A DNA stretch of 64,000 nucleotides from Escherichia coli (GCF_003018255.1 NZ_CP027440.1); one strand, 5' to 3'. Shown: positions 61,519 to 62,308, numbered from the stretch's first letter. Made by a program: numbers and translations. The notes: generated from the sequence alone by a model not told the origin.

Positions 61519-61782
61519 ATGAAGCAAACCGGACGAGGCTTGCTTAACAGTCCTGGAGCAACCAATAGAAAACCTAATGGTATACGTTTAGTACCGTCAG
61601 CAAATACAGAAACGTATAATCGTGATGGATTTTTAACACATAGTTGTTTAAACGCTTTTGGTCCATCTTTAGGACCTCGATTCTGTTCCGAGGGTTGTAT
61701 AACTGGTTCATCTAATGACATGCAAAAATTAAATGAGCTAATATTTTCAGAGCCAGATAGCACATTAACAGTGACGGACTAG
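61519..61782 (+). CDS. Hypothetical protein in AT-rich Rhs-associated region
   Basis: 87-aa ORF from ATG 61519 (track ORF opens at GTG 61507) with GGAG 7 nt upstream; no family recognised. Confidence 0.3.
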   Translation: MKQTGRGLLNSPGATNRKPNGIRLVPSANTETYNRDGFLTHSCLNAFGPSLGPRFCSEGCITGSSNDMQKLNELIFSEPDSTLTVTD

Positions 61783-61786
61783 AAAT

Positions 61787-62308
61787 ATGGCAAGGTTATT
61801 AACAATTGTGCTTTTTTTCTCTATTTCTGCGAATGCAGTTACTGTAAACCAATTTCAGAGAGAGTTGGATTTGGCAGACAAGACAATATTATGGGCACTA
61901 ATATCAGCCAGTACCCAAGAGGGACGAAAAGCGTGTTCACTTAGCTATTTTTCATGTAAAGCCGCAGAGGCTGAACTCGGACTGGCATATATGGCTGCTA
62001 ATGATAACAAGGCATTTCTCACATCCTTATCTAGAATAATGATGTACAAAATAGATGCTGGACTTTCCGAATCCTATACATGCTATTTATTAAGCAAGGG
62101 AAAGATCATAAGACCATATCTGAAGAATCTAAATCCACACCAACTTGTCGCTGATTGCATTGAAACTGTAAATAAAATAAAAGATAAAAATAAAAAAATC
62201 ATTGATATAGATTCAGTTAATATTTGTAATGATAATAAAAATATAAATTGGAGAGTTAATAGTACTATTGTAGCCATTGACGATTCTATAAAATGCATCG
62301 ATGAATAA
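61787..62308 (+). CDS. Hypothetical secreted protein (signal-peptide-like N-terminus)
   Basis: 173-aa ORF starting MARLLTIVLFFSISANA; very AT-rich, Lys/Asn/Ile-rich; no family recognised. Confidence 0.35.
   Translation: MARLLTIVLFFSISANAVTVNQFQRELDLADKTILWALISASTQEGRKACSLSYFSCKAAEAELGLAYMAANDNKAFLTSLSRIMMYKIDAGLSESYTCYLLSKGKIIRPYLKNLNPHQLVADCIETVNKIKDKNKKIIDIDSVNICNDNKNINWRVNSTIVAIDDSIKCIDE

What the first reader, a model, noticed from the sequence alone, without database searches (positions are those of the whole stretch)
61519..62308. Two uncharacterised AT-rich ORFs in the Rhs tail, one with a signal peptide
Two adjacent ORFs (87 and 173 aa) lie in strongly AT-rich DNA and I recognise neither. 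They could be an orphan toxin/immunity-like pair or another small two-gene module, and I think this is the least-explained coding sequence in the window.
Basis: inference. Interest (0 to 1): 0.5.

Follow-up and report, generated by a model that had tools for sequence, protein, structure and literature searches.

The report
Displaced Rhs toxin stump plus Imm57
The two AT-rich ORFs are the leftovers of an old Rhs toxin–immunity cassette in the E. coli rhsA locus: a truncated, almost certainly dead fragment of a cell-wall-attacking L,D-peptidase toxin followed by its intact, periplasm-exported Imm57 immunity gene. This is an ordinary arrangement that public annotation already names.

Summary
ORF1 (61519-61782, 87 aa) and ORF2 (61787-62308, 173 aa) exist, lie in DNA of 33-39% GC next to an Rhs core of 62% GC, and ORF2 has a Sec-type signal peptide.

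ORF2 is a full-length Imm57 immunity protein (Pfam PF15596, E=5e-44). RefSeq gives it that name in a 100% identical genome.

ORF1 is not a real gene. Its first ~11 codons come from junction DNA. The other 76 codons are the C-terminal half (P70-D145) of a 145-aa Tlde1/DUF2778-type L,D-peptidase Rhs toxin domain. It keeps the probable H…SxGC motif but has lost four of nine β-strands, about half of the invariant residues, and the whole Rhs core.

Intact Rhs-core+Tlde1-CT→Imm57 pairs occur at the same site in other E. coli, in Superficieibacter, and on a full-length 1510-aa Rhs in Nitrosomonas-like MAGs.

The module is present in 3695 of 5426 complete E. coli genomes. In the common allele class (K-12 yibV included) Imm57 is frameshifted. 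The window carries the minority intact allele.

Novelty: already known. Interest is low. Whether the orphan immunity gene still protects the cell remains untested.

The parts
61519..61782 (+). ORF1 (87 aa): a chimeric ORF. Codons 1-11 (MKQTGRGLLNS) are read from junction DNA. Codons 12-87 are the C-terminal part of a Tlde1-type toxin domain.
   Evidence: The same 87-aa product with one substitution is P0054, named 'type IV secretion protein Rhs' by one source. PGAP leaves it unannotated in the identical genome.
61552..61782 (+). 3' remnant of an Rhs C-terminal toxin domain of the Tlde1/DUF2778 L,D-peptidase type: residues P70-D145 of 145, plus the stop codon. It keeps H99 and S115-E-G-C118. 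It lacks residues 1-69.
   Evidence: Pfam PF10908 E=1.3e-3, model positions 66-107 of 120. A custom toxin HMM hits positions 99-177 of 177, E=2.8e-44. DNA homology to intact orphans begins at 61544-61552. The model of the intact domain puts strands E2-6, E11-19, E25-34 and E61-66 in the missing part.
61787..62308 (+). Intact Imm57-family immunity gene (173 aa). The predicted Sec signal peptide is encoded by 61787-61837; the mature protein is all-alpha with six Cys.
   Evidence: Pfam PF15596 E=5.4e-44, model positions 2-100 of 100. PGAP names it 'Imm57 family immunity protein'. There are 174 cluster representatives with E<=1e-3, mostly 170-190 aa and matching full length. Conserved D90, S94-E95, C99, C124, C147, C170. 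AF2 pLDDT 94.6, seven helices.
61419..61551 (+). Junction DNA between the current toxin/immunity cassette and the truncated old tip. It includes a 32-nt decayed rhs/PAAR gene start at 61443-61474.
   Evidence: Found in only 180 of 5426 E. coli genomes, all at 99% identity or more. The 19-mer ATGAGCGGAAAACCAGCGG matches the rhs start at 56803 with one mismatch, against 0.01 expected by chance. Local alignment matches 25 of 32 nt, score 36 against 15.9±2.7 for shuffles.
62469..62700 (+). ISAs1 (H-repeat) transposase remnant between Imm57 and yibH. This is context and marks the distal edge of the rhsA element.
   Evidence: 80% identity to the ISAs1 transposase gene of L002, 6827-7060.

Best explanation
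The two ORFs are a displaced ('dissociated') Rhs C-terminal tip at the distal end of the E. coli rhsA locus (selA-yibF-rhs…yibH-yibI-mtlA). The original module encoded an Rhs core end (…DPxGL), a 145-aa Tlde1/DUF2778-type L,D-peptidase toxin domain, and, 4 nt downstream, a Sec-exported immunity protein of family Imm57. By homology to Tlde1, such a toxin attacks peptidoglycan stem peptides in the target cell's periplasm.

In this lineage a newer cassette arrived: an HExxH toxin tip, a 136-aa ORF, and the first codons of a following PAAR/rhs gene. Its right-hand junction fell inside the old toxin domain at about codon 70. That deleted the Rhs-core homology and the N-terminal 48% of the toxin.

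What remains of the toxin (ORF1) is a chimeric stump that cannot fold as a YkuD-like domain. It also cannot be loaded into an Rhs cage or delivered, so I take it to be inert (inference).

Imm57 (ORF2) is intact. If expressed, it would be exported to the periplasm, stabilised by disulfides, and would bind and block incoming Rhs-delivered Tlde1-type toxins from competitors. That would make it an orphan immunity gene. This mechanism is inferred from family context and was not shown here.
For: Locus identity and annotation.

Imm57: full-length Pfam match, E=5e-44. Family-wide conservation of D, SE and four Cys. All-alpha model, pLDDT 94.6. Signal peptide features.

Toxin remnant: Pfam Tlde1_dom partial match. 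The intact allele in strain MS14385 gives Tlde1_dom E=2e-7 and reads …DPLGL-ATCLYS…VTD. DNA alignment places the breakpoint at 61544-61552. HMM coverage is 99-177 of 177. The invariant residue set shows H99…S115-x-G117-C118 retained and the ASGNNG, CKNN and RGPIPxGxW motifs lost. The AF2 model of the intact domain (pLDDT 93.1) places 4 of 9 strands in the deleted part. Its six best PDB matches are all L,D-transpeptidases.

Conserved pairing of toxin then Imm57: E. coli L002, L004 and L005; a Superficieibacter orphan array (L007); L010; and a full-length 1510-aa YD-repeat Rhs in L008, with a related copy in L009.

Literature: Tox-LD-peptidase is linked to Imm16/Imm57 and RHS (PMC3482391). Rhs-DUF2778 fusions and periplasmic action with catalytic His/Cys are described (bioRxiv 10.1101/2020.02.18.954545; PMC9638812). 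The C-terminal displacement model is set out in PMC2935791.

Selection: dN/dS for Imm57 is about 0.1 against Superficieibacter, though dS there is saturated, and 0.13 within the intact allele class.
Against: No expression data. The promoter-like and terminator-like scans are not above the shuffled expectation.

In K-12 the yibV/yibH interval is listed as a promoter island marked positive in one of that paper's binding columns, in its section on H-NS binding (PMC3661553). This hints at silencing.

All seven sampled genomes of the majority class (3377 genomes at 90-95% identity) share a 1-nt deletion in codon 9 of Imm57. The gene is therefore dispensable for most E. coli.

The within-class dN/dS rests on only 6 substitutions.

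No full-length Rhs carrying this toxin tip was found in E. coli in my samples. All 120 listed protein hits were 410 aa or shorter. The attacker that an orphan Imm57 would defend against is therefore not identified in this species.

The structural matches of the toxin model to L,D-transpeptidases are weak (E 0.008-0.27, TM 0.31-0.50).
Confidence: 0.85

Rival explanations
1. Both ORFs are functionless relics. The Imm57 frame is open in this lineage only because the truncation event and the allele are young. It is not expressed, or it confers no protection.
For: Most E. coli carry a frameshifted copy: all seven sampled genomes of the majority class share the same 1-nt deletion. One genome of the intact allele class (MLI114) has a 5-nt deletion. 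The DNA is AT-rich, and K-12 has a promoter island at the equivalent site, listed in a paper section on H-NS binding. No promoter signal exceeds chance. No full-length attacker Rhs was seen in E. coli.
Against: The frame is intact, with a complete signal peptide and all family-invariant residues. Four of the five genomes sampled from the >=99% identity class are intact. The few substitutions within that class are mostly synonymous (4 synonymous, 2 non-synonymous). Orphan immunity genes are known to protect in other systems (PMC10539506 and PMC12247911, abstracts).
Confidence: 0.45
2. The pair is a silent reserve cassette. It could be re-attached to the main rhs gene by homologous recombination to change the strain's toxin, as proposed for orphan Rhs tips.
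For: In other E. coli (MS14385, FDAARGOS_497, MLI114) the same module keeps a stretch of Rhs core and an intact toxin domain. This is the structure required by the displacement and recombination model (PMC2935791).
Against: In this window the Rhs-core homology and toxin residues 1-69 are deleted. No homologous crossover with the rhs core is possible, and no functional toxin could be regenerated.
Confidence: 0.03
3. ORF1 is a genuine small protein with a new role. For example, it could act as a leader ORF whose translation drives coupled translation of Imm57, or as a truncated peptidoglycan-binding fragment.
For: A GGAG Shine-Dalgarno sequence lies 6 nt upstream of the ATG at 61519. ORF1's stop is 4 nt before the Imm57 start, which itself has only a weak ribosome-binding site. 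The 3' toxin frame is open in every E. coli allele sampled, with dN/dS 0.22 between the two allele classes.
Against: The N-terminus is created by a junction present in only 180 genomes. PGAP does not call the ORF. An 87-aa ORF is within what chance gives in this DNA. There is no signal peptide, whereas the parent toxin acts in the periplasm.
Confidence: 0.1

Closest known systems
Rhs–DUF2778 (Tlde1c/'Tae7' family) polymorphic toxins with Imm57 immunity (Zhang et al. 2012, PMC3482391; Sibinelli-Sousa et al. 2020 preprint, 10.1101/2020.02.18.954545)
   Same: The same toxin domain family (PF10908) is fused after the Rhs core DPxGL motif, followed directly by an Imm57 gene. This is the family the module belongs to.
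   Different: In the window the toxin is cut to its last 76 residues and detached from any Rhs core. Only the immunity half is complete.
Tlde1a/Tldi1a of Salmonella Typhimurium SPI-6 T6SS (PMC9638812)
   Same: An L,D-peptidase-type effector that acts in the periplasm, with catalytic His/Cys in an (S/T)xGC motif. It is neutralised by a small immunity protein carrying a Sec signal peptide.
   Different: Tlde1a is a stand-alone 173-aa effector whose immunity protein is DUF2195, not Imm57. Its His-to-Cys spacing is 10 residues (H121…C131), against 19 here (H99…C118), and its SHGC motif is SEGC here. Sequence search of the PDB with the intact E. coli toxin allele does not reach it, and it is not among the Foldseek hits.
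E. coli K-12 rhsA-locus orphans: yibV, with the adjacent Rhs fragments
   Same: Same chromosomal site and the same module at about 92-93% nucleotide identity. A 111-aa protein of the yibV type (P0026) is an internal piece of Imm57. Equating P0026 with K-12 YibV rests on my memory of the gene's length and position, not on a tool result.
   Different: In K-12 both halves are decayed. Imm57 has a 1-nt deletion in codon 9 and a 1-nt insertion, and the toxin has internal stops. The window has an intact Imm57 and a different upstream junction.
Dissociated Rhs tips / C-terminal displacement (Jackson et al. 2009, PMC2935791)
   Same: An AT-rich tip plus a small downstream ORF, shunted distal to the current tip of a GC-rich rhs gene.
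   Different: A typical displaced tip keeps a piece of core sequence. Here the displacement, or a later deletion, removed the core piece and half of the tip.

Membership tests
Imm57 (Pfam PF15596) | Significant full-length match to the family HMM | tested here: met
   E=5.4e-44, residues 30-127 on model positions 2-100 of 100. The exhaustive search gives 174 cluster representatives, most aligned over residues ~5-170.
Imm57 (Pfam PF15596) | Mostly alpha-helical, with conserved D, SE and C (Zhang et al. 2012 table) | tested here: met
   The family description is quoted. D90, S94-E95 and C99 are invariant in A3; D90, C124 and C147 are invariant in the 83-sequence A2. The AF2 model is all-alpha, pLDDT 94.6.
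Imm57 (Pfam PF15596) | Encoded immediately downstream of a polymorphic toxin with an LD-peptidase C-terminal domain | tested here: met
   Toxin HMM hits end 4-40 nt before the Imm57 start in the window, L002, L004, L005, L007, L008, L009 and L010. One exception is L011, where the preceding ORFs do not match the toxin HMM.
Imm57 (Pfam PF15596) | Periplasmic location, matching the compartment in which the toxin acts | tested here: met
   Sequence rules only: an n-region Arg, an 11-residue hydrophobic core and an AxA site, with six Cys in the mature part. No dedicated signal-peptide predictor was available.
Imm57 (Pfam PF15596) | Binds and neutralises its cognate toxin | not testable with these tools
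   Needs co-expression or binding assays. I found no experimental study of any Imm57 protein; a search for 'Imm57' returned two papers, both computational mentions.
Tlde1 / DUF2778 L,D-peptidase toxin domain (Pfam PF10908) | Match to the family HMM | tested here: inconclusive
   The window ORF gives only E=1.3e-3 and covers model positions 66-107 of 120. The intact allele (MS14385) gives E=2.2e-7 over positions 10-106 of 120. NCBIfam has no model that matches either.
Tlde1 / DUF2778 L,D-peptidase toxin domain (Pfam PF10908) | Catalytic motif H…(S/T)-H-G-C-h of L,D-transpeptidase-like enzymes | tested here: met
   H99-x15-S115-E116-G117-C118-I is present in the window fragment. H99, S115 and G117 are invariant and C118 at least 90% conserved across 69 homologues. 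The second His of the canonical motif is Glu here. The assignment of C118 as the nucleophile is by motif analogy only.
Tlde1 / DUF2778 L,D-peptidase toxin domain (Pfam PF10908) | Complete YkuD-like beta fold | tested here: not met
   The window lacks residues 1-69, including strands E2-6, E11-19, E25-34 and E61-66 of the model and about half (24 of 47) of the invariant positions. For the intact allele, the top six Foldseek PDB hits are L,D-transpeptidases but weak (E 0.008-0.27).
Tlde1 / DUF2778 L,D-peptidase toxin domain (Pfam PF10908) | L,D-carboxypeptidase or exchange activity on peptidoglycan; toxicity in the periplasm | not testable with these tools
   Needs biochemistry.
Orphan (dissociated) Rhs tip | Lies downstream of, and in the same orientation as, a full-length rhs gene; AT-rich relative to the core | tested here: met
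Orphan (dissociated) Rhs tip | Retains a fragment of Rhs core ending in PxxxxDPxGL upstream of the tip | tested here: not met
   Absent in the window, where homology starts at toxin codon ~70. Present in the MS14385, FDAARGOS_497 and MLI114 alleles.

The most novel reading that the evidence does not exclude
The intact Imm57 allele may be kept by selection in a minority of E. coli lineages as an orphan immunity gene against Rhs-delivered Tlde1-type cell-wall toxins from competitors. The toxin's 3' stump may survive because it supplies the ribosome entry or coupling (or a promoter) for Imm57. Imm57 would then be an experimentally unstudied inhibitor of L,D-peptidase toxins: a small, disulfide-stabilised helical-repeat fold with no specific relative among solved structures.
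Probability: 0.35. Interest if true: 0.3.

Novelty: already known. Interest (0 to 1): 0.15.

Why it matters
It matters little beyond correct annotation. The result explains an AT-rich stretch of the rhsA locus and shows that K-12's orphan gene yibV is a broken Imm57 immunity gene. It also documents one more case of Rhs C-terminal displacement in which the old toxin was amputated and its immunity gene spared. The one open point of some value is that no Imm57 protein has been tested experimentally. The predicted fold has no specific solved relative, so the intact allele here, paired with the intact toxin allele of strains such as MS14385, would be a convenient pair for that test.

Tried and rejected
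- **NCBIfam:** no meaningful hit for either ORF or for the intact toxin allele.
- **PADLOC:** nothing.
- **PDB by sequence:** nothing for Imm57 or for the intact toxin allele.
- **Foldseek of the Imm57 model against PDB:** no match at E<=0.001.
- **Locus search with the broad Imm57 alignment:** A narrower alignment found only four loci in genome contigs.
- **The look-up of encoding contigs on three distant Imm57 homologues:** short contigs with little context.
- **Promoter and terminator scans:** not above the shuffled expectation, so no expression claim is made.
- **Antisense ORF 61437-61763 (108 aa):** considered and rejected. Its frame has stops in K-12, Superficieibacter, L010 and L008.
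- **Full-length Rhs carrying this toxin tip in E. coli:** none in the loci sampled, and all 120 listed protein hits are 410 aa or shorter. I cannot say that none exists. The 2020 preprint cites a Shigella sonnei example.
- **'Reserve cassette' idea:** rejected for this window because the core homology is gone.
- **Housekeeping L,D-transpeptidase:** rejected because of the fusion to Rhs cores in all homologues.

Full report
**Where we are.** The end of the window is the E. coli rhsA locus. It runs selA (54477-55868, minus strand), yibF, a large rhs gene (56803-60950), then an AT-rich tail, then yibH (62765-63901, minus strand). A complete genome (strain JNE23-011) matches 61400-62400 at 100% identity and shows the same gene order, followed by yibI-mtlA. 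GC content drops from about 0.62 in the Rhs core to 0.24-0.40 between 60400 and 62650.

**Observation.** ORF2 has a typical Sec signal peptide (MARLLTIVLFFSISANA|VT) and six Cys in the mature part. ORF1 has no signal peptide. In 500 dinucleotide-preserving shuffles of 61419-62764, no ORF reached 173 aa, and the longest averaged 68±17 aa. ORF2 is therefore well beyond chance. ORF1 is not beyond chance by length alone.

**ORF2 is Imm57.** Pfam gives PF15596 (Immunity protein 57) at E=5.4e-44 over the whole model. PGAP names the gene 'Imm57 family immunity protein' in RefSeq genomes.
- An exhaustive HMMER search of 1.84 billion cluster representatives finds 174 relatives. Most are 170-190 aa and align over nearly the whole protein.
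- D90, S94-E95, C99, C124, C147 and C170 are invariant or nearly invariant in one or both of the Imm57 alignments. This matches the 'mostly alpha; D, SE, C' description of the family (PMC3482391).
- The AlphaFold2 model is confident (pLDDT 94.6) and all-helical.

**ORF1 is the stump of a Tlde1-type Rhs toxin tip.** Pfam gives a weak partial match to Tlde1_dom (PF10908, E=1.3e-3, model positions 66-107 of 120).
- In strains MS14385 and FDAARGOS_497 the same site holds an Rhs-core fragment plus an intact 'tlde1 domain-containing protein' directly upstream of a 99%-identical Imm57 gene.
- That reading frame is …[13 protein letters not shown]…DPLGL-ATCLYS…TLTVTD and matches PF10908 at E=2.2e-7.
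- DNA alignment shows that the window is homologous to these alleles only from 61544-61552 onwards.
- An HMM built from six homologues hits the window frame over positions 99-177 of 177, at E=2.8e-44.
- Counted from the residue after DPLGL, the toxin domain is 145 aa and the window keeps P70-D145.
- Across 12 and then 69 homologues the retained part contains H99, S115, G117 and C118. H99-x15-S-E-G-C118-I fits the L,D-transpeptidase motif HXX14-17-(S/T)HGCh quoted for Tlde1a (PMC9638812), with Glu replacing the second His.
- The lost part holds about half of the invariant positions (the ASGNNG, CKNN and RGPIPxGxW motifs). In the AF2 model of the intact domain (pLDDT 93.1) it also holds four of the nine β-strands.
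- The six best Foldseek matches of that model in the PDB are all L,D-transpeptidases, but with weak scores (E 0.008-0.27, TM 0.31-0.50).
- The first 11 codons of ORF1 (MKQTGRGLLNS) come from the junction DNA, in a different frame from the relic described next.

**The junction.** The stretch 61419-61551 occurs in only 180 of 5426 complete E. coli genomes, always at 99% identity or more. It contains a decayed copy of an rhs/PAAR gene start at 61443. The 19-mer matches 56803 with one mismatch, against 0.01 expected. The local alignment matches 25 of 32 nt, scoring 36 against 15.9±2.7 for shuffles, and the remnant has in-frame stops.

The simplest history is as follows (inference, in line with the C-terminal displacement model of PMC2935791). 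A newer cassette replaced everything between the rhs core and the middle of the old Tlde1 tip. The cassette comprised the present AT-rich HExxH tip at 60540-60950, the 136-aa ORF at 61008-61418, and the first bases of whatever gene followed it in the donor.

**Conserved pairing elsewhere.** The order Rhs-core end, Tlde1-type tip, Imm57 recurs in several contexts:
- in three other E. coli genomes (L002, L004, L005);
- in Superficieibacter, within an array of orphan tips (L007);
- in a metagenomic contig (L010);
- in Nitrosomonas-like MAGs (L008, L009). In L008 the tip sits on a 1510-aa YD-repeat/RHS-core protein and Imm57 is followed by sdhB and gltA.

A profile search with the toxin alignment returns 245 proteins. 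Most of the listed hits carry RHS-family Pfam domains or are named RHS proteins. One Imm57 homologue (L011) is not preceded by this toxin type.

The literature had already linked Tox-LD-peptidase tips on RHS proteins with Imm57 (PMC3482391). It had also described Rhs-DUF2778 fusions, the periplasmic action of Tlde1, and its need for the catalytic His and Cys (preprint 10.1101/2020.02.18.954545).

**Population picture.** The region 61400-62400 matches 3695 of 5426 genomes, always on the chromosome. Of these, 3377 fall in a class at 90-95% identity. All seven sampled members of that class (a K-12 derivative, J53, and six others) share a 1-nt deletion at the position equivalent to 61811, which is codon 9 of Imm57 inside the signal peptide. 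They also carry stops in the upstream toxin part.

Protein clusters of 111-169 aa in the database are pieces of this broken gene. P0026, at 111 aa, corresponds to what I remember as K-12 YibV. In the class at 99% identity or more (244 genomes), four of the five genomes sampled have an intact 173-aa frame. The fifth, MLI114, has a 5-nt deletion.

The dN/dS ratio for Imm57 is 0.13 within the intact class, from only 4 synonymous and 2 non-synonymous changes. It is about 0.35 against the K-12 class, and about 0.1 against Superficieibacter, where dS is saturated.

**Mechanism and how far it is shown.**
- *Shown:* family membership of ORF2; homology and truncation of ORF1; the conserved gene pairing; export-signal features.
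- *Inferred from the families:* the parent toxin is delivered inside an Rhs cage by a T6SS and acts on peptidoglycan stem peptides in the periplasm. Imm57 is exported and blocks it there.
- *Inferred for this window:* the stump is inert and undeliverable. The intact Imm57 can only serve as orphan immunity against foreign Rhs-Tlde1 toxins, or it is a not-yet-decayed relic.

I cannot decide between those last two readings. No expression evidence is available and the promoter scan is uninformative. In K-12 the yibV/yibH interval is listed as a promoter island in a paper section on H-NS binding (PMC3661553).

**Comparison and verdict.** This is a member of a known kind that is already named in public annotation. 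It differs from the best-studied relative, Salmonella Tlde1a/Tldi1a, in three ways: the toxin is fused to Rhs, the immunity family is different (Imm57, not DUF2195), and the His-Cys spacing is longer.

Novelty: already known. Interest is low (0.15). The modest open point is that Imm57 has never been tested experimentally and has no solved structural relative.

Noticed in passing
window 61008-61418 (+): This 136-aa ORF lies directly after the current Rhs tip and has a hydrophobic N-terminus (MKVCLYFISVFFSSCCIA). It matches nothing in Pfam, NCBIfam or PADLOC and PGAP calls it 'hypothetical protein'. It is probably the immunity protein for the HExxH tip, and it is the truly unexplained ORF of the tail.
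   Followed up: partly
window 60540-60950 (+): The current Rhs C-terminal tip is AT-rich (GC 0.35) and carries an HEMGH motif. It has only a weak Peptidase_M91 (effector metallopeptidase) match, E=9.4e-4, so it is probably a zinc-metallopeptidase toxin.
   Followed up: partly
window 56803-57141 and 56916-60950 (+): The main rhs gene is split into a 112-aa PAAR-type N-terminal ORF (MSGKPAARQGDM…) and a 1344-aa ORF in another frame. PGAP marks the gene 'frameshifted' in the strain whose tail region is 100% identical. The strain's own Rhs toxin may therefore be non-functional.
   Followed up: no
window 61443-61474 (+): A 32-nt relic of an rhs/PAAR gene start (MSGKPA…) with in-frame stops sits between the 136-aa ORF and the toxin stump. 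It was probably carried in with the incoming cassette.
   Followed up: yes
window 62469-62700 (+): A remnant of an ISAs1 (H-repeat) transposase gene, 80% identical to the intact copy in strain MS14385, lies between Imm57 and yibH.
   Followed up: partly
window 62360-62389 (+): A promoter-like site, TTAACT-N18-GATAAT, lies just downstream of Imm57. The same two hexamers are listed as a constitutive RpoD promoter between yibV and yibU in K-12, where the spacer is given as 15 (PMC3946193). I did not reconcile the two spacer lengths.
   Followed up: no
window 61437-61763 (-): A 108-aa antisense ORF overlaps the toxin stump. Its frame is interrupted by stops in K-12, Superficieibacter, L010 and L008, so it is spurious.
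   Followed up: yes
L011 1-2412: In this metagenomic contig an Imm57 homologue (1846-2412) follows an Rhs-core end and two unmatched ORFs (157 and 108 aa), not a Tlde1-type tip. It may have a different toxin partner or sit in a poly-immunity array.
   Followed up: no
L004 (strain MLI114) 9047-9975: Here the orphan toxin ORF is intact but the adjacent Imm57 carries a 5-nt deletion. This is the reverse of the window's state. It suggests that an orphan toxin lacking export is harmless to its host.
   Followed up: no
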